Shown in pieces: positions 9,600 to 35,349 of a DNA stretch of 64,000 bases. Each line of letters starts with the position of its first letter. Position 1 is the stretch's first letter. Both the position numbers and the translations under genes were made by a program. The notes beneath the pieces are model-generated. The model searched no databases. It was not told where the DNA came from and saw nothing but the letters and a program-made list of their open reading frames with translations. Source of the stretch: Lytechinus pictus (lineage: Eukaryota); contig NC_087245.1 in NCBI RefSeq assembly GCF_037042905.1, positions 12,650,001-12,714,000 on the forward strand, given 5' to 3'.

Positions 9600-10746
9600 T
9601 TAACATTTACTTTGACAAGCAAAGAATACCCCCTGATTATCCAAGCATAAACATATGCGACATAAACACGATATCAAACTATTTGGTTGAAGATACCAGA
9701 CATCTAGAATACTTTTCATGTTAAGCATGTTTTTAATATATATTTTTTTCATCAAATGGGAGATTTGTGAAATGGAATTTTTTTCTTTAAATGAAAAAGA
9801 AAATGTATTGAGTCAAATCATACTGTATATTTCATAATTCATACTGCAAGCGTGAAACAAAGTATACAGCTAAGGCAGAGACATGCAGTTGAGATTGTTG
9901 AGGAAGGGGAATCTGATGAGCATCTGGTCAAAGTGGAATGGGACAGAGGACAGTTGAGAGAGGAATATAACAGGACATGGTGTAAAATGTTATGTAGATT
10001 ACAATGTATTTGGAATCACATGGATTGTTTTGATACAAAAATGTTACACCTTTTTAAAATACTGATAAACTCCCGAGTTCATTTGACCTTTCATGAGTGT
10101 AAATGACCTAAAGGTGACCTTTGCATGTGTTTTATTTTTTATAACCTTAGTAAAGTGTACATTCCATTTTCCATAAGCTTTAATTTTATACCAAACAGAA
10201 TGTTTATTCCGTACACTAGATAAGAGCTAAGTCATAATTATGACATCAATAAAAAAAATGAACAAGGGAGCCCAGGTGGCACCCATCGTATTCTTGAAGT
10301 AGACACCCTATACTACAACTTTCAGCAAAAAAATTGCATACATACCCAACTTGACGGTCATGTTGTGGTTCTACTTGACTACTAACATCCATGGAAGCTC
10401 TGCCTCAGAAAAAAAGTTAAGCCTGTTATTCTGCCTAAAATTAAGCTACATCTAGACCAATACCCTATATTTATGTTCTCACACTAATGAATAAAAAAGA
10501 AAGTATTCATCATGTTCCTGTGACCTCACACAATGAATGACCAATACCCAGCAATTTTCGCAATTAAATACTGTCTATTCGATGTGCATGCATAACAACC
10601 ACTTTTGTTGGTAATGGTAATGGACTCCTGGCATAGCAAACCTATGAAAAGTTGAAAACTTGAAAGTTTGTGATACTGTTAATACTAAATCATGTTTTAC
10701 ATTTAAATTTCTCACTCTCCTTCAATCTTGTTCAGGTTTGACTATA

Positions 10747-10864
10747 ATGGCTGAATACATTCCAAGACCGTGTGTTTTCTGTGGACCTTCAGGATCTGGT
10801 AAAAGCACATTGATTAAACAGCTGATGGATGAACACAAAGATACATTTGGCTTCTCTGTCAGTC
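10747..10864 (+). CDS. GUK1: Guanylate kinase, first recognisable coding exon (exon starts at 10736 after the ttcag acceptor)
   Basis: [39 protein letters not shown] contains the P-loop GPSGSGKS and the GK 'FSVS' motif. Donor gtaagt at 10865. Confidence 0.96.
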
Positions 10865-11878: not shown

Positions 11879-11920
11879 ATACGACAAGGAATCCAAGACC
11901 TGGGGAACAGGATGGAGTTC
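11879..11920 (+). CDS. GUK1: Guanylate kinase coding exon 2
   Basis: tttag|...|gtgagt, 42 nt. Encodes (H)TTRNPRPGEQDGV(H), the GK signature TTRxPRxGExxG. Confidence 0.96.
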
Positions 11921-13781: not shown

Positions 13782-13878
13782 ATTATCATTATACAACTCG
13801 AGAGAAGATGGAATTGGCCATTGCAAATGGAGAATTTCTAGAGCATGCACAGTTTTCAGGCAATATGTATGGTACAAG
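13782..13878 (+). CDS. GUK1: Guanylate kinase coding exon 3
   Basis: ttcag|...|gtgagg, 97 nt. Encodes [31 protein letters not shown](S) of the GMP-binding domain. Confidence 0.96.
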
Positions 13879-15519: not shown

Positions 15520-15899
15520 ATAGACATATGTGATTTGATGATTATTCATGTATTCCTTTTAAAATATTCTTTCATCATGTTCGGAGTATTTGTTGAATAA
15601 CTTGAATTGCCGTCATAACTTTTGAAAGTTTATGGATCTATTTCGTGAAACATGCACGAAGGGTAATCAGTTCACTGATTGTCTTGACAAGTCTTGATGA
15701 TCAAGGTCAAAGGTAATTTAGGGTCAATGAACATAGTATTTTATTATATGAATGGTGTTTTTTGTGAATAGTTGTTGTTTTCAAAGTTAGCACTGCTGCT
15801 ATTTTGAATCGCGTAATTAATGCAAGCAAGACTGCCAGAGGCATTCCACTTACTACAACATATTTAAGATTTTTAATACTGCTTGTGTTTCTTTTACAG

Positions 15900-16038
15900 T
15901 AAAAAGGCAGTTCAGGATGTGCTGGCAACCAAGAGGATCTGCATTCTAGATATTGATGTGCAAGGGGTGAAAAGTATTAAGGAAACAGACCTAAAACCAA
16001 TCTATATCTTTGTCAAGCCACCAAGCATTGAGGTCTTG
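15900..16038 (+). CDS. GUK1: Guanylate kinase coding exon 4
   Basis: tacag|...|gtaagc, 139 nt. Encodes [46 protein letters not shown]. Confidence 0.96.
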
Positions 16039-17729: not shown

Positions 17730-17814
17730 GAGGAGAGGCTTAGAGGCAGAAAAACAGATTCCGAAGAAGCCATTCAAAAGAGATTAGCTACTGCAATAAA
17801 AGAATTGGAGTACA
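17730..17814 (+). CDS. GUK1: Guanylate kinase coding exon 5 (LID domain)
   Basis: tttag|...|gtaagt, 85 nt. Encodes EERLRGRKTDSEEAIQKRLATAIKELEY and ends in phase 1. Confidence 0.96.
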
Positions 17815-18438: not shown

Positions 18439-19623
18439 TTTTTTGTCTCGCCTGCATAGCAGAGCGAGACTATAGGTGCCGCTTTTCCGACGGCGGCGGC
18501 GTCAACATCAAATCTTAACCTAAGGTTAAGTTTTTGAAATGACATCATAACTTAGAAAGTATATGGACCTAGTTCATCAAACTTGGACATAAGGTTAATC
18601 AAGTATTACTGAAAATCCTGCCTGAGTTTCAGGTCACATGACCAAGGTCAAAGGTCATTTAGGGTCAATGAACTTTGACCATGTTGGGAGAATTATTTTC
18701 AAAATCTTAACCGAAGGTTAAGTTTTTGAAATGACATTATAACTTAATGTGGACCTAGTTCATGTAACTTGGTCATAAGGTTAATCAAGTATTAGTGAAC
18801 ATCCTGCTCGAGTTTCAGGTCACGTGACCAAGGTCAAAGGTCATTTAGGGTCAATAAACTTTGGTCAAGTTGGGAGTATTTGTTGAATTACTATCATAAC
18901 TTTGAAAATTTATGGATCTAGTTCATGAAACTTGGACATAAGGTTAATCAAGTATTAGCGAACATCATGTGCGAGTTTCAGGTCACATGACTATGGTCAA
19001 TGGTCATTTAAGGTCAATGAACTTTGGCCGTGTTGGGGGTATTTGTTAAATTACCATCCTAACTCTGAAAGTTTACGGATTTAGTTCTTAAGACTTGGAC
19101 ATAAGAGTAATCAAGTATTACTGAACATCCTGTACGAGTTTCAGATCACATGACCATGGTCAAAGGTCATTAAAGGTCAATGAACTTTGGCCGTGTTGGG
19201 GGTATTTGTTAAATTACCATCCTACATGTAACTGAAAGTTTATGGATCTAGTTCATCAAACTTGGGATATAAGAGTAATCAAGTATCACTGAACATCCCC
19301 TGTGAGTTTCAGGTCACAAAACCAAGGTCAAAGGTCAGTTAAGGTCAATAAACTTAGGCCATGTTGGGGTAATTGTTGAATTGCCATCATAACTTTGAAA
19401 GTTTATAGATAGTCATAGAGTGAATGAAATGTGGACATGGATGTAGTTGACAAGTCTTAAGTCACCGTTCAAATGTCATTTATGGTCAATGAACGTGGTA
19501 TTATGTCATTATATGAATGGTGTTTTTGTGAATGATTATTTTATAGTTTTTTTCAAAGTTAGCACTGCTGCTATATTAAATCGCGTAATGCAGGCGAGAC
19601 TGCCAGAGGTGTTCCACTTGTTT
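18439..19623 (+). mobile_element. Helentron-associated non-autonomous element (HINE/DINE-like), copy in GUK1 intron 5
   Basis: T-run insertion, 5' subterminal repeat tctcgcctgcat, (GGC)n microsatellite, tandem cores of about 120-180 bp (gaccaaggtcaaaggtca), and 3' atgcaggcgaga followed by a short terminal segment. Fragments at about 15580-15853 and about 8355-8640. Confidence 0.8.
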
Positions 19624-20390
19624 AATTTAATATGCACTTTGCTTTCATCCCTCAGTGTGTGTATACTGTGGTGCATTCATCTAAATTATGCATGGCTATT
19701 CTTTTGCTCGTTTTATTCACTGTACTGTGTGAAGCCATACATATATATGATAATGCATTTTTAAGCATTTCAATCTTCACCATATTCCTATATCAAGAAA
19801 GGGATTTTTTCGAGTAATTAAAATCTGCAGGGGTTATTAAGAAGTAGTAATAGATACATTAGGTGCATTTTGTATCTAAACTTTAAAAGAAACGCAAGAA
19901 CGCTGTAGAGAGTATTCGACTTAGTTGAAATTAGTATGTTCGAAAGAAAAAAAATACAATTTTTTTTTTAGATGAGTTATTATTTCTGTTGCATTAAAAT
20001 ATTTTTTTGTGGAGGGGGGGGGGGGGGTGTTCCAATCATAACATAAAGCCACCAGGGGTATTATTTGATTATTTTCAATTAGAAATGCAGCGGGTGTATC
20101 AGAACAAAATTCTATTGTAAGGAGCTATTTCTCACATGTTCATTCAAAATTTCCTTTTGAATTGAACCAAATGGAAATTGACTGTATTAGGTATATCTGA
20201 AAAATAAAAGAAAAGGTTCTGGTGGAATACTGCAGTCTTGATCTACCTTTTCAGTCATTCAGTTGTATATTTTATATAAGAAAGACAATTTAAAATGCCA
20301 CTATTGATATTTTTAGGCTTTTTGCCTTAATACAAGGATCTGGTTATTTTGACATGATTATGTGATTTGGTTTGTCTTACATGCTTACAG

Positions 20391-20512
20391 TTGACAAGCA
20401 AGAGCCTGCTGAAGGGAGTATATATTTCATCGTGAATGATATATTTGAAAGAGCATACTCTCAACTTAGTCTAATCTTACAAGATGAGATAAACAGACTC
20501 AAGGCAGGATAA
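20391..20512 (+). CDS. GUK1: Guanylate kinase alternative last coding exon 6a (200-aa isoform)
   Basis: cttacag acceptor, in frame with exon 5. Encodes (I)DKQEPAEGSIYFIVNDIFERAYSQLSLILQDEINRLKAG*, which has the GK C-terminal I/V-N-D-x4-AY-x2-L motif. Confidence 0.78.
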
Positions 20513-22243
20513 AAAAATTCTATGTTTATTTTGAAATTTGAAACGTCTTTCAAATATTCAATTGCATTAACCTTTGTTAATTTAATTGTCAATGGCATAT
20601 CATGAATGGTTTATTTGACTGGGTTGAGGTAACTAATTCAAACTGATGATTCTTGTTTTAATTTTTCATGGTTATCAGAGATAAACAGTCAATGTTATTA
20701 ACAAATACATTTTACATCTAGATTTTTATTAGTATATTATTTGAAATAGTTGGTGAATAACTGGTGAATTGGTATAGTTACAGGTAACTACTAAAAGTTG
20801 CTGATTGTTGTGTTTAATCTTCATGTTTGAGATAACATCAGTAGTGCACAAACTTTTTTTTTCAAGATTATTGCTTTTACAAAATTTGCATCATGGGTCA
20901 TCTGCACATAAAAGGAAACCTTATTTTTAACCTAACATTAAACCCTACACTTACCCTTACTCTAATCACATTATTCAAAACCCAACCACAACTCTTACTG
21001 TTGGTCCCTTTACTCCAGAGAAAAGGTAGAGCAAAATCAAAGCAAAGATTGGGTTTCCTACCAGGTCCCTTGAACATGAAAGATACAATTGATTATTACA
21101 CACAACTTTCAGTCTATGGAATACTATGAACGAAAAAGATATAGTCAATCTGAAATACATGTATTGATTGTATCACTGTTTCGGGGGCCTGTAGGTAAAT
21201 TGATACAAACCCACCTCTCTCTTCATCATGGCTTGTGTTTTTGTGTTCACTAAACACCTTTTGAGTTGATGACTAACTTTCCTCTGCTTACATGTATACT
21301 GAGAAAAAATACATGGGGGGGGGGGGGGGGGGGGGGGGAGGTGCGCCTCATCCTCAAAGTGTAAAATGGCATGGGTAGTTGCAAACATAACCCATGTTCT
21401 ACCGCCCCCCCCCCCTCGCTCAAAACTGTTTTCCTGTGTAATAGGTATAAATGAGAAGAGGAAAAAAATGAAAATATCTGAAATATTCATTTTTGACACA
21501 AAAAATACCCTTTGTTTGTGTTTGTGATTTTTTTTTTTTTTTTTTGGGGGGGGGGAATGTTGGGTATGGAAACTAACATTACAACTTTTGTCAGAAAAAG
21601 TTTAGATCTACTGAAATTGAGCAAATGGGTAATTGTTGTGATGTGTAAAAATGTGGGTGCTTGATTGTCAGGGTTGTGGGAAGTTCTGTGACATATCTTT
21701 TCTATATTAATATGTTTGTTTTATATTCTATTAATGGTAATTTTCTTGTTTAACAAAATGTACAATTGCTGTTGGAGGGAGGGGGGTATTTGATTTATTG
21801 AGGATCAATTATTTCTTTCCAGAAAGAGGCCAACATTTGCAAAAATTTGTATAGAGGCTAAAAATAATATAGGATGATGAAATACATGCAGAAGAGGAAA
21901 ATCACTGAATTGATTTGTTAGTATTAAACATAGGATTATATAAAACCACAGATCTGCCTCATAGAAAACTGGATGGTCATTACATGTCCTTCTAAGATAT
22001 GTCATCAATATCGATTAATCTCTGAATAATAAGTAAAATGTTCAGCCAAAGAAATCTTGAAGTCTGGGGACTGTTTCATGAAACTGATTTTCACTGACAA
22101 ATTTGCTGTTATCCAATCAGATATATGGATTTTAGTAGCTTATAACAAAAATGAAAATAACTGACTTTTTAAAAATTAAATTGGCCCAGATAGATGCTCT
22201 TAACATATTTAATCCTTGTTTTTGTCTTTGTTTTTATTTATAG

Positions 22244-22377
22244 TCGATGAAGAGACATCCGCAAACGCAACCTTCCTTGTAGTCAATGATGACAGAGAGG
22301 TAGCCTATGAAAAGATCAAGGGAATCCTAAGTACCGATATTGTCAAACTTAAAGATATCAGATTCAAAGCAAAGTGA
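22244..22377 (+). CDS. GUK1: Guanylate kinase alternative last coding exon 6b (204-aa isoform)
   Basis: Long pyrimidine tract and tatag acceptor, in frame with exon 5. Encodes (I)DEETSANATFLVVNDDREVAYEKIKGILSTDIVKLKDIRFKAK*. Confidence 0.88.
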
Positions 22378-23662
22378 CCCCCTCATTGTGTCATACCTCC
22401 AGATGAAATATCTTGCATTTCTTAAATTATAGATTGAATTATTTATGTTATCTTAGTGTAAGGTACATATATGTTTTATCGTCTTTAAAAAGATAAAATC
22501 TGCATATTTTAATGCATTACAATACATGTATATCCACCTGTCTTGAAATCGATATTTCATGAATATTTATTAATGATATTCCATACTTATTCAAATGCTT
22601 TAATATATTTTCTTGTCCCAACTCAATTGTGTCTATGATATCTCTTGTTAATTGAGACTGCCATATGTATGCTTCTCCCTGAAAAGTGCTTGTGATAGCT
22701 TTAAAAGCTTTAGCTGTTAGGGAATTATGCCTCTTCAGTTAACAAATTTATTGCATATTTACTTATTCATTTATGATGAATGATTCTGTATAATTTATGT
22801 TGAAAAATGATGCTTTGTAAATATGGAAGAAAATGAATGAATAGTAACTAGAAAGTGGGTATGATTGACTTGGATTGTGATTACATGCACCTCAGCAATG
22901 AAAGGCATGCATTGAATGGCAACTCAGTTAACAAGAAACATCATAGACACCAATAGATGTGGAAAAAATATTCAAGAATTATGACACGCTTATATCAATC
23001 CTGCTTCCAAAGATCATTTTATTGATAACAGTTTGACTTTGGATTTCAATATTGTCAGAATCTTGAATACAAGATATACCAAAAGCTTTAATCTCGTAAA
23101 GATTAATTGCTCTGCTAACTATTGATCCATCTAAAACCGGAAAGTTATGGAAGAAATGGTTATGGGATCTGATCGGATTGGTGAGATTTTGAGTACCAGC
23201 ATAATTGACTATGGCCTTATCATGATATAACCTTGTATCACATTTAAATTATTAATTTGCAATGCAACAAAATATTCATAAGCCTCCAGAATCAAATGAA
23301 GGAACAAATGAAGAATTGAAATGATACGAATTATATTATTTTTGAAATTGCTCATGCTGAGTTTATCTGCATCAAATTGTAAGATCTGCATTTATTTGCT
23401 ATGTGTATAGAAACCGTTATTCTATAACTCATTTGTAATAGAAATTTTTTTTTGAACCACTTTATGCATGTTCCAAGTGTATTTAAGCAGAAAGATTGCA
23501 ATTATCATGTGTCTCTGTATTGTGAATGTGTGATTCAAGAATATTCATGGCTTGATAAAAAAAATGTATGATGTAGTACTCTAAACAAAATTTTACTCAT
23601 GTAAATAAGATGTAGATTGTGTGTAATGTAAAAGGTTTATTGACATTGATTATTTCATGTCA

Positions 23663-23782
23663 GTTGAATTTAATGTTGAGCACATAAAAGATGGGGGAAA
23701 GATTGAATTTAATGTTGAGCACATAAAAGATGGGGGAAAGATTGAATTTAATGTTGAGCACATAAAAGATAGGGGAAAAGAT
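23663..23782. repeat. Minisatellite, 3 x 39 bp
   Basis: ttgaatttaatgttgagcacataaaagatgggggaaaga repeated three times. Confidence 0.95.
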
Positions 23783-28929: not shown

Positions 28930-29150
28930 TCAACTCTCTCCTGTAGATTCCCCGCATTCAAAACGAGCAAAGTCCACAACCTCAACATTTTCTTGAAGCA
29001 ATAGTTCTCCAACTGTAAGGCTTGGATCCAATAAATATTCCTGATTCACCATCTCATCCGTCTCTGTTTCTGAAGATGATGATGGCACAGGGGCATCATC
29101 GTCAGTTGGGTCAGAATCTGGTGGTTGAGCTGTCTCCTTTGATTCCAGCT
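28930..29150 (-). CDS. TSFM: Mitochondrial elongation factor Ts, last coding exon
   Basis: ttccag acceptor. Encodes (E)[10 protein letters not shown]...[44 protein letters not shown], with the EF-Ts C-terminal QxYLLDPSxTV...DFxRFECGE motif. Confidence 0.95.
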
Positions 29151-30006
29151 CTGGAAAATTATTTAAAGGATAAATGAGAAACGAAAATAACTGAATTTGA
29201 TATCCAGAGCATGAAAAACAGGGATTTTTACTCACTAGAAATTTCAAGAAAATCTCTATTCTAAGTGAGGGTCTATTAGAAATAACATAGAACTTTGAGT
29301 AATACTCTCCAGACAAGAAATAATCTTCACTTACTTTTTTGGGTTTTAAATCAAGAGATTTCATTCTCAATGAAGAGCATGAAATCAAGAGGTGGTGCAA
29401 TGGGGGGGGGGGGGTGGGGGATGATAGTCCTTTGATATTCAAGTAGTGACAAAGAGGAGAAAAAAGAAAAGAGCAGAAGGGAAAGAAGGAAGAAGAGTAT
29501 TATATGAGAGGTTGGAGTCACAACATTTTACATGAATGTTTCCTAGGTAATTGGTTATATACCAGCTTGGTCTTTACCAGCAAAATGGTGTCCTGCCAAG
29601 TTCCTACGGGAGTTACCGTAAACAAACAGAATGCAAAAATGTATGTCACCAGTAGGTCTTCCAAAACCATTTAAAACTATGCCTATAGGCTATAGCTGAT
29701 GTACAATATATGAAATTTATTGTACTGATTTATTGTACGGCAGGATTAATTCCTTGAATGCACTAAGCGCCTTTAGCAGCTGGAGCTACAGCCAGGGTAA
29801 TATATGGTCCACCATTGAATAGGAAACTAGATAAATCGGCACCTCATAAATGCTATATTATTATTATTATTATTACTGACTGAAATTGATACTCATGCTT
29901 AACCAATACAGGCCAAACTACACACCTGATAAATTACACAACCAGAAATGTATATTTTTCTTGGTAATACATCTAGATCAAATGTATTATAAAAAAAAAC
30001 ACTTAC

Positions 30007-30213
30007 CCTCAGGATCTGGTGGTGAATACACCCCTATTCTAAGTGGATTCATCCCAACAACGTGCTGTGATAGCCTCCTCCCAAGCACCTCTGGGCGGAA
30101 ATTGGGTGTTGTTTCTCCCAAGTTCTTGAAGACAACAATGGCGGCATATTTACCCATGGTGCACTTGCCCTGGTTGTCCTGGGGCTTTTGAAGTGCTGAA
30201 TGAACATAAGAAC
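30007..30213 (-). CDS. TSFM: EF-Ts(mt) coding exon
   Basis: catag|...|gtaagt, 207 nt. Encodes GSYVHSAL...MGKYAAIV...LGRRLSQHVVGMNPLRIG. Confidence 0.95.
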
Positions 30214-30917
30214 CTATGAAACAAAACAAAAGCGATTGCAATTTAATTTCAGCCCAGTTGACACTGTGTTGAATTATATTGGTGACATAAATTGAGGAAA
30301 CAGAATTGAAATTGATGAAGAAATGACAAAGAATTAATTTTTGTGATTTATGAATAAATTTTGTATAAATTGGCATGAATAAATCGGTATCGGTCAACAA
30401 ATATATGAAGCATTTTTTGTAAGTTTTGATAAATATGCATAAATTAGCGTATTTAATAAGTTTCAAAATTCTGTGTAGAAGTTTTGAATCCCTATCATAT
30501 AAAGCAAAAAAATTTAAATCGAACTTGAAATGACAAAGAAGCATTTTGAAATTATGGACGGACGACGGACGCAACGACACGGCACAAGCTCATCCGGGCC
30601 GGATGAGTTAAAAATGTGATAAACAGACTTCCCAAAAGCATATCTCCTCCAGCACCACCAAATAAGGGTAGAGGCATACAAATTCATAACAAGCCATTAC
30701 ATTTTTATAATGGGATATTGTACTCTCTGAACATTCATCTCATACATATATTAAATGCTTTTCATATCTTTTCATCATGAGGTTAGTGGCTTATGCCAAG
30801 ATCAGGAGTATTCACTCATGTCCAAAATACACACTAGGAAGCTATATAAATATCATGAAATTAATCTCATCTATCTAAATTTGATTTGAGCTCTTAGTGA
30901 ATGATCCCACATCTTAC

Positions 30918-31068
30918 CAATGAACAATTCTTGAGGTGCTTCTAGATACAGCCCTCTCCTGATTGACATGTTCTCCCCGACCTGACCTATCGTCAAGGCT
31001 GTCAGATCTTCCATTGATTTACCATCCTCACCCACTGATGACTTCATATCTTCGGCAGATAGAGGGAG
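30918..31068 (-). CDS. TSFM: EF-Ts(mt) coding exon
   Basis: aacag|...|gtaaga, 151 nt. Encodes LPLSAEDMKSSVGEDGKSMEDLTALTIGQVGENMSIRRGLYLEAPQELFI(G), with the IGxxGENMxxRR motif. Confidence 0.95.
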
Positions 31069-32312
31069 CTGTTCAAAATAATGAATGAAACAACAAACGC
31101 ATCATCAAAAAGATGTGTAGATTACATTTGGATTGAACATACATTCCAGTAATAATCATAAAATGAATGCAAACGGAATTCAACAAAATGCACACCTGCA
31201 TGGTTGGGTGTATAAATAAAGTTAAGTACCAAATGATTCTGTTTGAATTGCTGAATAATTCACAAAATGACGATGCATTCAGTTAAGAGATAGGAGTTTT
31301 CCAAGCAATAATACATAGAAGTGCTGTGTGCATTTTTGCATGAAAAATTTTCAGCATACTTGGTTTTCAGAACACACTACATTTTCTCCTAAATGTACAT
31401 AAGTAAGGATTAATGAATTAACTTGTTAGCACATCATCTAAGTAAACAATCTGGTTGCATAGTCTAGATGCTGGGTGGATGGATTGATAGCAATCCATCT
31501 TGATTTCAAAGATTTTCTCTTCAAATTATTGCCAACTATTACCTCTTGAGTTGGCTTCAACTGTGATTAATATCCACTTGGTCTACTAGCAGATGGTCTA
31601 ATTCTCAGATCATGTAATACCATCATGGTTAAACCCACTTAGTCTATCATTTAGTCTAACGCCTGTAAGGTCTATTTTCCATTTTGTCTCCATATTAATT
31701 AGCACTTTACCAAATGAAAATTTCGTTCATATACAGTTCACCTAATCATATATACCAATTAGTGTTAGATAAAAGTGGATATTAGACAAAGTGGTAAATG
31801 GCCTAAATGGAAATTAGACCAAATTAATAGGAGGCGAACTGGTTGTAGACTAAATAGGATTAATTAGACTATATGGAATGAGACCAAACAGATAAATAGA
31901 CAAATAGCAAGTGTTGACCAAGTAATATACCTTTAAAATATTGTGTAAGTAAACATTCAATTCTATACTCAACATTTTCGACCGACAAATTGTCAAGACC
32001 TGACAACTTTCCTTGATTATGATTGGCTTAGAGGCACTGTTACCATTGTAACTGTCAGATAAAACAGTACTTGTCGGATAAAACGTCTGACAAGTCCTTC
32101 ATAAAACGCTCCCCAGATGCTTAGTAGAACTGTGGAAGATGAACTAACGGCAACTTATCTTGATATCAATTTTTTTCTTTTTAAATCATTGAGCACCTGA
32201 GTTTGCTTCAACTATAGGGAACCAGATGTGACATTGTCTATGTTTTTCTGTTCCATATGTTATAAAATTGATATTTAACATCCCATTGTACACATATTGT
32301 AACTCAACTTAC

Positions 32313-32432
32313 TTTCAAAATATCCTGATTTGCATGTTTGCCTTTCTGACTTAGGAGGGCAGCAGACACTACATGGCTAACAAGGTTCTGGAACTTGGCA
32401 TTACGTGCTACAAAATCAGTCTCACAATTCAC
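32313..32432 (-). CDS. TSFM: EF-Ts(mt) coding exon
   Basis: cacag|...|gtaagt, 120 nt. Encodes VNCETDFVARNAKFQNLV..., the EF-Ts TDFV signature. Confidence 0.97.
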
Positions 32433-32989
32433 CTGTGAACGAGGAAAAAGTAGAAATGAAATGAAAAGGCTGATTTCCAGGCCCATATCTATCAAATTAG
32501 TACAAATACATGAAAATGTTAATTTATTTATTTTAAGGATGATTTACATGCATTTATAATCATAAATTTGAATTCTTTAAATAACATTTTAAAACAATTG
32601 ATATTTACCTCATCACTCTCTGTAATATCCTGATCAAATGTATTTTTCAAAAAAGGTTTGATTTGAGAAATTTTTGTTGTGAATTTTATTAGTTTTATTT
32701 TCTTATGAAATCCCATGGTATTTTACTCTTTTGTTCATTTAACTTTTTATAAAGTGTTGTTGGTAAAAATCATTTTGTTCATAAATAGCATGAATTATTT
32801 GATTTTATTCAAAGCTAGAATGATAATACATTTGTGACTCTTAACAGCTGACACAGCCTTTCTAAAAGAACTGTACATGAACATTTCAAAGCAATTATCT
32901 ATTTCAATTTTTATGTTGACATTATGTGATATGATTTGTGTCTTTTGAAGCATACAGAAAGATTTTACAAAATTGGGTTAAAGTATTAC

Positions 32990-33118
32990 CTCAACCATAA
33001 TAGCAGAGTTAGACTGACACATGACCCCTATAAGACCCTGAGCTGTAACTCTTCCCTGTAGTTTGGTAGCCTTGCTCCAACCTTCCTTTTGGGCCTGCTC
33101 TCTCAACCAAACCTCTGC
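32990..33118 (-). CDS. TSFM: EF-Ts(mt) coding exon
   Basis: tttag|...|gtaata, 129 nt. Encodes [43 protein letters not shown]. Confidence 0.97.
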
Positions 33119-33223
33119 CTAAAATATAAAAAAAACCATGTGAGGCATAGAGTAAACTAGTGATGATTGTGCTTCAAATCTGCTCTACATCCAGAATACA
33201 CGATGCTTTCCAATATCATTTAT

Positions 33224-34436
33224 AAAACAAGTGGAACGCCTCTGGCAGTCTCGCCTGCATTACGCGATTTAATATAGCAGCAGTGCTAACTTTGAAAACT
33301 ACTATAAAATAATCATTCACAAAAACTCCATTCATATAATGACATAATACCACGTTCATTGACCATAAATGACATTTGAACGGTGACTTAAGACTTGTCA
33401 ACTACATCCATGTCCACATTTCAATCACTATCTATAAACTTTCAAAGTTATGATGGCAATTCAACAATTACCCCAACATGGCCTAAGTTTATTGACCTTA
33501 ACTGACCTTTGACCTTGGTTTTGTGACCTGAAACTCACAAAGGATGTTCAGTGATACTTGATTACTCTTATATCCCAAGTTTTATGAACTAGATCCATAA
33601 ACTTTCAGAGTTAGGATGGTAATTTAACAAATACCCCCAACACGGCCAAAGTTCATTGACCTTAAATGACCATTGACCATGGTCATGTGACCTGAAACTC
33701 GTACAGGATGTTCAGTGATACTTGATTACTCTTATGTCCAAGTTTTATGAACTAAATCCGTAAACTTTCAGAGTTAGGATGGTAATTTAACAAATACCCC
33801 CAACACGGCCGAAGTTCATTGACCTTAAATGACCATTGACCATGGTCATGTGACCTGAAACTCGCACATGATGTTTGCTAATACTTGATTAACCTTATGT
33901 CCAAGTTTCATGAACTAGATCCATAAATTTTCAAAGTTATGATAGTAATTCAACAAATACCCCCAACTTGACCAAAGTTCATTGACCCTAAATGACCTTT
34001 GACCTTGGTCACGTGACCTGAAACTCATGCAGGATGTTCACTAATACTTGATTAACCTTATGCCTAAGTAACATGAACTAGGTCCATATACTTTCTAAGT
34101 TATGATGTCATTTCAAAAACTTAACCTTCGGTTAAGATTTTGAAAATAATTCTCCCAACATGGTCAAAGTTCATTGACCCTAAATGACCTTTGACCTTGG
34201 TCATGTGAACTGAAACTCAGGCAGGATGTTTAGTAATACTTGATTAACCTCATGTCCAAGTTTCATGAACTAGGTCCATATACTTTCTAAGTTATGATGT
34301 CATTTCAAAAACTTAACCTTAGGTTAAGATTTGATGTTGACGCCGCCGCCGCCGCCGCCGTCGCCGCCGCCGTCGCCGTCGCCGTCGGAAAAGCGGCGCC
34401 TATAGTCTCGCTCTGCTATGCAGGCGAGACAAAAAA
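33224..34436 (-). mobile_element. HINE copy in TSFM intron, very similar to 18439-19623 in inverted orientation
   Basis: Reverse complement of the 18439 copy. The spurious ORFs 19447+ and 33216- translate almost identically. It has a longer (GCC)n tract. Confidence 0.85.
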
Positions 34437-35034
34437 CAGGTTATAAGTGGTTTTCTTCATATGTTTGTATTTGTTGCATGCACTGACTGCTCAATTTCAT
34501 AAAATAACAAAAGTTTTATGAATAACATAAAAGCCTGTGAAGAGCAATGGTAAAATTTTGAACGATCACTTTAACATTTCAATGTTACAAAAGGTCATGA
34601 CTGATAATGGAAAGAATCACTTTTAACTGGATGATCATTTCAACAAAAAAGATATTGTATTTCAGTGTGCAAAAAGGGGAAGTTCACCATGAAATCAAGT
34701 TGGTTTTGTTACAGGCAAACAAAAAATAGTGAAACATATCAATGAACATCTTACATTTTTATGTCATATGTGAGTTCTATCTTTGATTAAACTTTCCACT
34801 CACTATGCATTTTATTTGTGTTATTTTAAACCTAAATCCAGGCTTTTAAGATGCAAATGTATGATCTAAACAAAAATAGGAACATTTTTTTTAATACATG
34901 TAAATAACCAACTTTCAAAAAAGACTTACTAAAATTGAAATGAACAATATAGAGATCAAAGCTGTCATTCCATTGAAAATAATCTTTCTGTCCAGAATAT
35001 GACTTGATATCAATTCAATTTGGCCAAACAGTAC

Positions 35035-35213
35035 CTGATCAACATCATTATTGAATTTCTCAAGGGCCTTCCGGCAGTTTACAAAACTGAACCCAGTCTT
35101 CCTTCTCAGCTTCGCCAGATTTGCCTTGCTGTTTGTAGCAGCAGCTGTAGCCATCATCCTCATCATCATGATTGTTGATGGAAACTTTCTCGCTGAGAGA
35201 CAAATAGACATAC
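35035..35213 (-). CDS. TSFM: EF-Ts(mt) exon with presequence and N-terminal UBA-like domain (in-frame ATG at 35211)
   Basis: gacag|GT ATG...|gtactg. Encodes MSICLSARKFPSTIMMMRMMATAAATNSKANLAKLRRKTGFSFVNCRKALEKFNNDVDQ. Confidence 0.95.
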
Positions 35214-35349
35214 CTGTCAGGAAGAGAGTTATAAAGAAGCGAATATGAAATTGGGAAGGATTATAAAAGAAAACAAAAATACATATTTTATTGTTACAAT
35301 AGAAAAATACTCTGAAAATTCATTTCGCCCAATTTATTGTGAACACTGA

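What the first reader, a model, noticed from the sequence alone, without database searches (positions are those of the whole stretch)
20391..22377. Guanylate kinase has two tandem, homologous, mutually exclusive last coding exons
Seen: exon 5 ends in phase 1 and splices in frame to either 20391-20512 (IDKQEPAEGSIYFIVNDIFERAYSQLSLILQDEINRLKAG*) or 22244-22377 (IDEETSANATFLVVNDDREVAYEKIKGILSTDIVKLKDIRFKAK*). Both have good acceptors, open frames and the VND-x4-AY-x2-(L/I)-x2-IL motif, yet they are strongly diverged. Known: in GK this segment supplies the last core strand, the adenine-contacting ND region and the terminal helix. Inference: an old exon duplication kept under selection gives two enzyme isoforms with different ATP-site C-termini and different 3' UTRs, possibly tissue-specific. 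I do not know of this arrangement in GUK1.
Basis: partly seen in the sequence, partly recalled or inferred. Interest (0 to 1): 0.72.

Follow-up and report, generated by a model that had tools for sequence, protein, structure and literature searches.

The report
Sea urchin guanylate kinase's swappable end
The sea urchin gene for guanylate kinase, an enzyme that makes GDP, has an old second copy of its last coding exon that is spliced in ahead of the usual one and shifts its reading frame, so one gene likely yields two enzymes with different ATP-site ends; starfish, brittle star and feather star records show two ends too, and this kind of splicing is already known from other genes.

Summary
Exons A (20391-) and B (22244-22377) are tandem homologues of the last coding segment of the genome's single GUK1-type gene. 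RNA reads (9 and 10 in two libraries, plus one contig set) join A at a GC donor (20503) onto B. So A is a 113-nt cassette, not a mutually exclusive last exon. Including it shifts B's frame, adds 12 residues and stops at 22280-22282, keeping B's 3' UTR. Skipping it gives the 204-aa B form. A run-on 200-aa form is also annotated and is supported by one contig. All three match Lytechinus pictus RefSeq proteins letter for letter. L. variegatus and S. purpuratus have the same frameshifted tail. Two homologous ends are annotated in 9 of 14 named echinoderm species (urchins, starfish, brittle star, crinoid) and in none of 3 hemichordate clusters. Both ends keep the adenine-binding Asn and are predicted to fold alike. 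One origin or several is unresolved, and function is untested. The layout matches PMCA (ATP2B) splice site C. New member of a known kind; I found no paper on it.

The parts
10747..10864 (+). Coding exon 1 (ATG, P-loop GPSGSGKS); an AG acceptor ends at 10735, so an upstream exon exists that was not located
11879..11920 (+). Coding exon 2 (GMP-binding region, TTR motif)
13782..13878 (+). Coding exon 3 (GMP-binding region, GNMYGT)
15900..16038 (+). Coding exon 4 (CILDID); single match in the own genome
17730..17814 (+). Coding exon 5 (LID arginines), ends in phase 1 at a GTAAGT donor
20391..20503 (+). Exon A as a 113-nt cassette: duplicated last strand, ND motif (N176) and terminal helix
   Evidence: RNA joint to 22244 in X22 (9 reads), X23 (10), X1 (1 contig); the exon chain translates to XP_063952354.1 exactly
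20504..20509 (+). Weak GC donor (AAG|GCAGGA, 5 of 9 letters match the U1 consensus), start of the 1740-nt A-B intron
20510..20512 (+). TAA stop, used only if the GC donor is read through (200-aa form, XP_054751962.1)
20513..21290 (+). Run-on behind exon A: an alternative 3' UTR or a retained intron; no AATAAA, ATTAAA at 20937
   Evidence: one 953-nt contig of X2 spans 20391-21290; X1 has low-depth pieces; zero depth in X22 and X23
22244..22377 (+). Exon B coding part, ancestral-type end (N175, basic tail); 204-aa form, XP_054751953.2
22244..22282 (+). Dual-frame start of exon B: 12-residue tail SMKRHPQTQPSL and TAG stop (22280-22282), read when exon A is included
   Evidence: the same frame relation holds in L. 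variegatus and S. purpuratus records
22378..23600 (+). Shared 3' UTR (at least to the end of the laid stretch; no further joint listed; end not mapped)

Best explanation
This is a guanylate kinase gene whose duplicated last coding exon (A) is spliced through a GC donor onto the original exon (B), shifting B's frame, so that including or skipping A likely gives two active enzymes that differ in the last strand, adenine-binding loop and terminal helix. Shown: the A-to-B joint in RNA, the frames and stops, exact matches to three annotated proteins, and the same tail relation in two other urchin species. Inferred: skipping A joins exon 5 to B (204 aa, ancestral-type end with a basic (F/Y)K tail shared with hemichordates). 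Including A gives 210 aa with a stop in the last exon, so the message should escape nonsense-mediated decay and keep B's UTR. If the weak GC donor is missed, A's own stop two codons further on gives nearly the same A enzyme (200 aa). The switch most likely tunes ATP/ADP handling, stability or partner binding by tissue or stage. In starfish, brittle star and crinoid the A-like end does not borrow B's frame and likely has its own stop, which would be the older state; the urchin GC donor would be a later addition.
For: Joint 20503->22244 in 3 of 4 runs laid; the raw reads on both exons lie on one strand. Depth at 22276 is 11 and 16 reads against 9 and 10 joint reads, so A inclusion is a major form in those two libraries (biased upward, since exon 5 was not on the stretch). 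The three exon chains equal P0121, P0122 and P0124 exactly. The X1 tails of L. variegatus and S. purpuratus fit the shifted frame of their B exon at exactly 12 residues; 1 of 20000 shuffled tails fits. Two ends diverge after the same Ile in 9 of 14 named echinoderm species. A is 92% and 82% identical in L. variegatus and S. purpuratus. The Asn is invariant in 98 of 98 aligned kinases, both ends included. AlphaFold2 gives both forms the same strand and helix (mean pLDDT 92.2 and 91.7); they match human GUK1 8pts_A at rmsd 1.7 and 1.5 A. Pfam PF00625 scores 205 and 208 bits against a cut-off of 25.2. The own genome shows one locus of this type.
Against: No protein or activity data. The exon 5 junctions were not seen in reads. 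The two raw libraries come from one study and about 6 in 100 of each was read; tissue and stage are unknown. X2 shows no A-B joint but an unspliced run-on. The structure models use an alignment dominated by other kinases, so their similarity is weak evidence of activity. Urchin A is no closer to starfish A (30-42%) than to starfish B (31-41%), and trees with one, two or three duplications cannot be told apart (p-AU 0.2-0.8), so one pan-echinoderm origin is not shown. Exon order in the non-urchin genomes was not checked. No second end was seen in Diadema (2 species), Antedon, Holothuria or Apostichopus records.
Confidence: 0.8

Rival explanations
1. One reading: A and B are alternative terminal exons chosen by polyadenylation, each with its own stop and 3' UTR.
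For: A has an in-frame TAA at 20510-20512; RefSeq XP_054751962.1 ends there. One X2 contig runs unspliced 20391-21290 and X2 shows no A-B joint. The A ends of 6 of 6 starfish, brittle star and crinoid species fit neither shifted frame of B.
Against: X22 and X23 have zero depth from 20617 to 21271 and 9 and 10 reads joined to B. There is no AATAAA between A and B. Three urchin species are annotated with the B-derived tail.
Confidence: 0.1
2. Exon A is a dimmer switch: inclusion gives a weak, unstable or non-catalytic protein and so lowers guanylate kinase activity, in the way a poison exon would, but at protein level.
For: A-type ends have lost features that B shares with hemichordates: Gly at +12 (1 of 8 A rows, 10 of 10 B rows), Ser at +15 (0 of 8, 10 of 10) and the (F/Y)K tail. 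A ends are more diverged between classes than B ends.
Against: The Asn, the AY motif and the helix pattern are kept in all A rows. A is more conserved than B between the two urchin genera (82% vs 73%). The stop lies in the last exon seen, so classical decay is not expected. The predicted fold is intact.
Confidence: 0.08
3. Exon A is a decaying pseudo-exon picked up by splicing noise.
For: Weak GC donor and the weakest pyrimidine tract of the six acceptors scored.
Against: Major inclusion in two libraries; open frame and 82% identity in S. purpuratus; second ends in four echinoderm classes.
Confidence: 0.02

Closest known systems
PMCA (ATP2B1, ATP2B4) C-terminal splice variants
   Same: Listed as C-terminal tandem exon duplication events. 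The ATP2B1 exon spans 154 nt (51 codons) while its listed peptide has 59 residues, and ATP2B4 178 nt against 67 residues (PMC8373072 supplementary table rows). I read this as an out-of-frame duplicated cassette that finishes in the next exon, as here; that the frame shifts at site C is also my recall. In the ascidian, the variant that keeps exon 21 has a different C-terminus and is the sperm form (PMC6226504, passages).
   Different: PMCA swaps a regulatory calmodulin-binding tail. Here the swap covers a core strand, an adenine-contacting residue and the last helix of a small housekeeping enzyme, and uses a GC donor just before the exon's own stop.
Tandem exon duplication-derived substitutions (Martinez Gomez et al., PMC8373072 and PMC9741552)
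   Same: Two homologous, alternatively used segments; ancient; 77 of 236 human events are C-terminal (passages).
   Different: The papers ascribe homologous C-terminal swaps mainly to alternative poly(A) use and note that such regions tend not to overlap ligand sites. GUK1 occurs 0 times in both main texts and in the one supplementary file searched.
KRAS 4A/4B
   Same: Homologous last exons of a small P-loop enzyme, conserved over more than 450 million years (PMC9882654, passages). Recalled, not checked: 4A is spliced onto 4B, which then serves as UTR.
   Different: 4A carries its own stop (recalled) and swaps mainly a membrane-targeting tail; here the stop of the spliced A form lies in the other frame of B.
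Human and mouse GUK1/GMPK (PDB 8pts, 1lvg, 9jah)
   Same: 55-57% identity, same fold, same catalytic and nucleotide-binding residues.
   Different: The human isoform variation I saw described is N-terminal (PMC13219423, passages); no duplicated C-terminal exon is catalogued.
Hybrid internal-last exons (bioRxiv 10.1101/2021.05.27.446076, abstract only)
   Same: Exon A appears both as an internal exon (X22, X23, X1) and as a run-on, possibly last, exon (X2).
   Different: No poly(A) site was mapped here, so the run-on could be a retained intron.

Membership tests
GUK1-type guanylate kinase (GMPK) | Pfam PF00625 above its cut-off over nearly the whole protein, no further domains | tested here: met
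   205.0, 208.2 and 205.2 bits for the three forms, cut-off 25.2
GUK1-type guanylate kinase (GMPK) | P-loop lysine and residues equivalent to human K17, S37, R44, D101, R133, R137, R148 | tested here: met
   K19, S39, R46, D103, R135, R139, R150 by the alignment; invariant or nearly so; roles from PMC12297293 passages
GUK1-type guanylate kinase (GMPK) | Adenine-binding Asn (human N171) in both ends | tested here: met
   N176 (A) and N175 (B), invariant in 98 of 98 rows
GUK1-type guanylate kinase (GMPK) | GMP kinase activity of each isoform | not testable with these tools
   needs an enzyme assay
Tandem exon duplication-derived C-terminal substitution | Two adjacent exons homologous to each other | tested here: met
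   both hit an outgroup-only profile (E 8.4e-7, 5.1e-6); same phase; 36% identity
Tandem exon duplication-derived C-terminal substitution | Isoforms carry one or the other homologous protein segment | tested here: met
   frames, RNA joint, annotated pairs in 9 species; protein-level detection not tested
Strictly mutually exclusive exons | The two exons never occur in the same mRNA | tested here: not met
   A joined to B in 3 of 4 runs laid
Alternative last exons by alternative polyadenylation | Upstream exon has its own stop | tested here: met
   TAA 20510-20512
Alternative last exons by alternative polyadenylation | Upstream exon has its own cleavage and poly(A) site | tested here: inconclusive
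   run-on contig in X2 only, lost at a skipped G-run near 21301; no AATAAA, ATTAAA at 20937, 21923, 22175
PMCA site C-type frameshifting duplicated cassette | Cassette length not a multiple of three, spliced onto the paralogous exon, stop in that exon's other frame | tested here: met
   113 nt; stop 22280-22282; same relation in 3 of 3 urchin species with an A form
NMD poison exon | Premature stop upstream of a later exon junction (rule recalled) | tested here: not met

The most novel reading that the evidence does not exclude
One duplication at the root of echinoderms has, for about half a billion years (date recalled), let a single essential guanylate kinase gene swap the ATP-site half of its core. 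One isoform is specialised for cells with very high cGMP turnover, such as sperm flagella, where it recycles GMP to feed guanylyl cyclase. Camarodont urchins later rewired the switch from a poly(A) choice to a GC-donor frameshift that keeps one 3' UTR.
Probability: 0.15. Interest if true: 0.7.

Novelty: new member of a known kind. Interest (0 to 1): 0.45.

Why it matters
GMPK is described as the only enzyme that makes GDP from GMP (PMC12297293). Its core is highly conserved, and duplicated-exon swaps tend to avoid ligand sites (PMC9741552). Here a natural pair of ends replaces the adenine-binding segment with a version only about a third identical, and such pairs are annotated in four echinoderm classes. 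That gives a ready-made experiment on what the last strand and helix contribute to kinetics, stability or localisation. It also gives a candidate case of one exon pair moving from 'own stop' to 'frameshifting cassette' within a lineage. The splicing logic itself is known, and the isoforms already sit unremarked in automated RefSeq models.

Tried and rejected
Run search with 20391-21000: 24 rows, 20 holding a share, none of those on record as RNA; taken as no evidence by itself. I laid 4 of the 24 runs (X22, X23 on record as RNA-seq; X1, X2 guessed RNA). Direct read counts for the two exon 5 junctions were not obtained. Third copy of the exon: none. Second GUK1 locus: none; other hits are 32-46% identical to parts of the protein. 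Trees of the 35-column end segment: the first had two mis-anchored outgroup rows and is not used. In one search (24 rows; A. rubens A, two sea cucumber rows and the vertebrate rows left out) no single-clade test was rejected (7 tests, p-AU 0.16-0.53). Among 6 fixed topologies only 'four independent duplications' was rejected (p-AU 0.015-0.021 under three models). Starfish, brittle star and crinoid A ends as frames of B: no fit in 6 of 6. RNA pairing between the introns around A: only weak inverted repeats of 25-32 nt, not pursued. Upstream first exon: two pattern searches found none. Conserved GTA codon: the tail's stop requires GTA for one Val of B in all three urchins, and GTA is 2 of 13 Val codons in this gene; a weak hint only. 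Literature: searches listed no paper on this arrangement (listings and abstract starts only; most subscription papers are not covered); one search was uninformative, one search returned 0, and PMC12148050 was not held. Earlier scan notes: none by sequence or for guanylate kinase words.

Full report
1. Observation. The window holds a guanylate kinase gene on the + strand with five shared coding exons (10747-10864, 11879-11920, 13782-13878, 15900-16038, 17730-17814), all with GT donors, ending in phase 1. A profile built from 169 non-echinoderm kinase ends finds only these two among 2129 stop-free stretches of the window (E 8.4e-7 and 5.1e-6; next best 0.94). They are about 36% identical as peptides. 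The own genome has one locus of this type; other hits are 32-46% identical to parts of the protein.

2. What the RNA shows. I laid 4 of 24 listed runs on 19700-23600. Two stranded RNA-seq libraries of one study (X22, X23; about 6 in 100 of each read) cover A and B but not the sequence from 20093 to 20354 or from 20617 to 21271. They give a joint that skips 1740 bases, listed as 20501->22242 with two letters fitting either side. Moved by two, it is 20503->22244 with GC..AG ends. It has 9 reads from 9 starts in X22, 10 reads from 7 starts in X23, and one contig in X1. Total depth at 22276 is 11 and 16, so A-containing messages are a major form there; the ratio is biased upward because reads from exon 5 had nothing to anchor their other side. 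X2, which differs from the window by about 5 letters in 100, has no such joint. It has one contig from 20391 unspliced to 21290 and another from 22244, each with 29 unplaced letters in front. That is what a fork at a shared upstream exon would give (inference). The exon 5 junctions were not seen directly.

3. Three products. A as a cassette is 113 nt, so B is entered in another frame. This adds SMKRHPQTQPSL and stops at 22280-22282 (210 aa). Skipping A gives 204 aa. Reading through the GC donor gives 200 aa with the stop at 20510-20512. These equal, letter for letter, records named Lytechinus pictus XP_063952354.1, XP_054751953.2 and XP_054751962.1.

4. Relatives. L. variegatus (XP_041475498.1, XP_041475507.1) and S. 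purpuratus (XP_030829768.1, XP_030829769.1) have the same pair. Their 12-residue tails fit the shifted frame of their own B exon, while 1 of 20000 shuffled tails fits. A is 92% and 82% identical to the window's; B is 95% and 73%. Asterias amurensis, A. rubens, Acanthaster planci, Patiria miniata, Amphiura filiformis and the crinoid Anneissia japonica each have two annotated ends that part after the same Ile; none of those 6 A-like ends fits a shifted frame of B. That makes 9 of 14 named echinoderm species. One end only was seen for Diadema antillarum, D. setosum, Antedon mediterranea, Holothuria leucospilota and Apostichopus japonicus, and for four unnamed transcriptome proteins; annotation gaps could explain this. 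Among 10 non-echinoderm clusters listed, including three hemichordates, none shows two homologous ends (13 of 15 listed shrimp members printed, two fragments left out). These are automated annotations, not genomic alignments of mine.

5. Origin. B keeps Gly+12, Ser+15 and an (F/Y)K tail in 10 of 10 rows, as hemichordates largely do; A-type ends have mostly lost them. B thus looks ancestral. Whether all A ends descend from one duplication is open. Urchin A is no closer to starfish A than to starfish B. On 35 columns, four independent duplications are rejected (p-AU 0.015-0.021), but one, two or three are not separable (single-clade tests rejected nothing).

6. What is swapped. By alignment to human and mouse GMPK, the segment supplies the residue equivalent to N171, which makes two hydrogen bonds to the adenine of ATPgammaS (PMC12297293, passages). 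The P-loop, GMP site and LID arginines lie in the shared exons. The Asn is invariant in 98 of 98 aligned proteins. AlphaFold2 models give both forms the same last strand and helix (A: E171-175, H179-202; B: E170-174, H178-203; mean pLDDT 92.2 and 91.7); the last ten residues of the 210-aa form are low-confidence (63). Both match human GUK1 (8pts_A, rmsd 1.7 and 1.5 A). This suggests two working enzymes but does not show activity.

7. Mechanism. Shown: inclusion of A with splicing onto B, frames, stops, conservation. Inferred: exon 5 picks A or B; the stop of the A+B message lies in the last exon seen, so it should escape decay; if the weak GC donor is missed, nearly the same A enzyme results, which makes the A output robust. 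Most likely function (inferred, untested): tuning of ATP/ADP handling, stability or partner binding by tissue or stage. Rivals: alternative last exons as the main mode (0.1; probably true in non-urchin classes and in part here), a weakened 'dimmer' isoform (0.08), a pseudo-exon (0.02).

8. Comparison with known systems. This is a C-terminal tandem exon duplication-derived substitution (PMC8373072, PMC9741552; passages). The nearest layout is PMCA: the catalogue lists a 154-nt duplicated ATP2B1 exon whose peptide runs 8 residues past the exon (supplementary rows), and in an ascidian the exon-including form is the sperm form (PMC6226504, passages). KRAS 4A/4B is similar (PMC9882654, passages; splicing detail recalled). 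GUK1 is absent from the human catalogue. Searches listed no paper on this arrangement; I saw listings and abstract starts only, and supplements of echinoderm transcriptome or proteome papers were not searched.

9. Verdict. Observation partly confirmed, interpretation partly supported. A real, expressed, conserved exon pair in an essential enzyme, using a known splicing logic, already present in automated annotation but apparently undescribed. New member of a known kind; interest 0.45.

Noticed in passing
window 28930-35319, minus strand: Exons of a mitochondrial elongation factor Ts gene, convergent with the kinase (Pfam EF-Ts_N E 6.9e-13 at 34918-35319; EF_TS E 1.4e-4, below cut-off, at 28933-29499).
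   Followed up: partly
window 18460-19620 (intron between exon 5 and exon A): Repeat element with five 163-nt units (64-87% identical to the reference unit); its end recurs near 15800-15851 and on the minus strand near 33200-33320.
   Followed up: no
window 10735-10749: An acceptor precedes the ATG. L. variegatus, S. purpuratus and Diadema records have 8 extra N-terminal residues, and starfish, crinoid and hemichordate records longer extensions, possibly mitochondrial targeting. The upstream exon was not found in the window by two pattern searches.
   Followed up: partly
window 22085-22150: Short high-copy repeat fragment about 95-160 nt upstream of exon B's acceptor, attracting reads from elsewhere on both strands.
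   Followed up: no
window 22341, 22352-22353: Allelic differences in all reads covering them in X22 and X23; 22352-22353 change Lys to Arg in B, as in XP_054751953.1. They lie behind the stop of the A+B frame.
   Followed up: partly
window 23664-23780: Three tandem copies of a 39-nt unit just beyond the part of B's 3' UTR that was laid.
   Followed up: no
P0001 (XP_054749674.1): An older L. pictus record with the A+B tail but a mis-modelled exon 2-3 region lacking the TTR motif.
   Followed up: no
P0144-P0152: Salmonid, pike and other fish records of about 380-440 aa that score about twice as high as single kinases, suggesting two kinase domains in tandem; real fusion or merged annotation not checked.
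   Followed up: no
P0054 and P0228 (Lingula anatina): Two isoforms differ only in the last 9-10 residues after the terminal helix, a separate and smaller C-terminal alternative.
   Followed up: no
P0019 cluster (labelled Gouania willdenowi): Its C-terminal segment is unlike the fish guk1 ends seen here (39-46% identity); possibly a divergent paralogue or foreign sequence.
   Followed up: no
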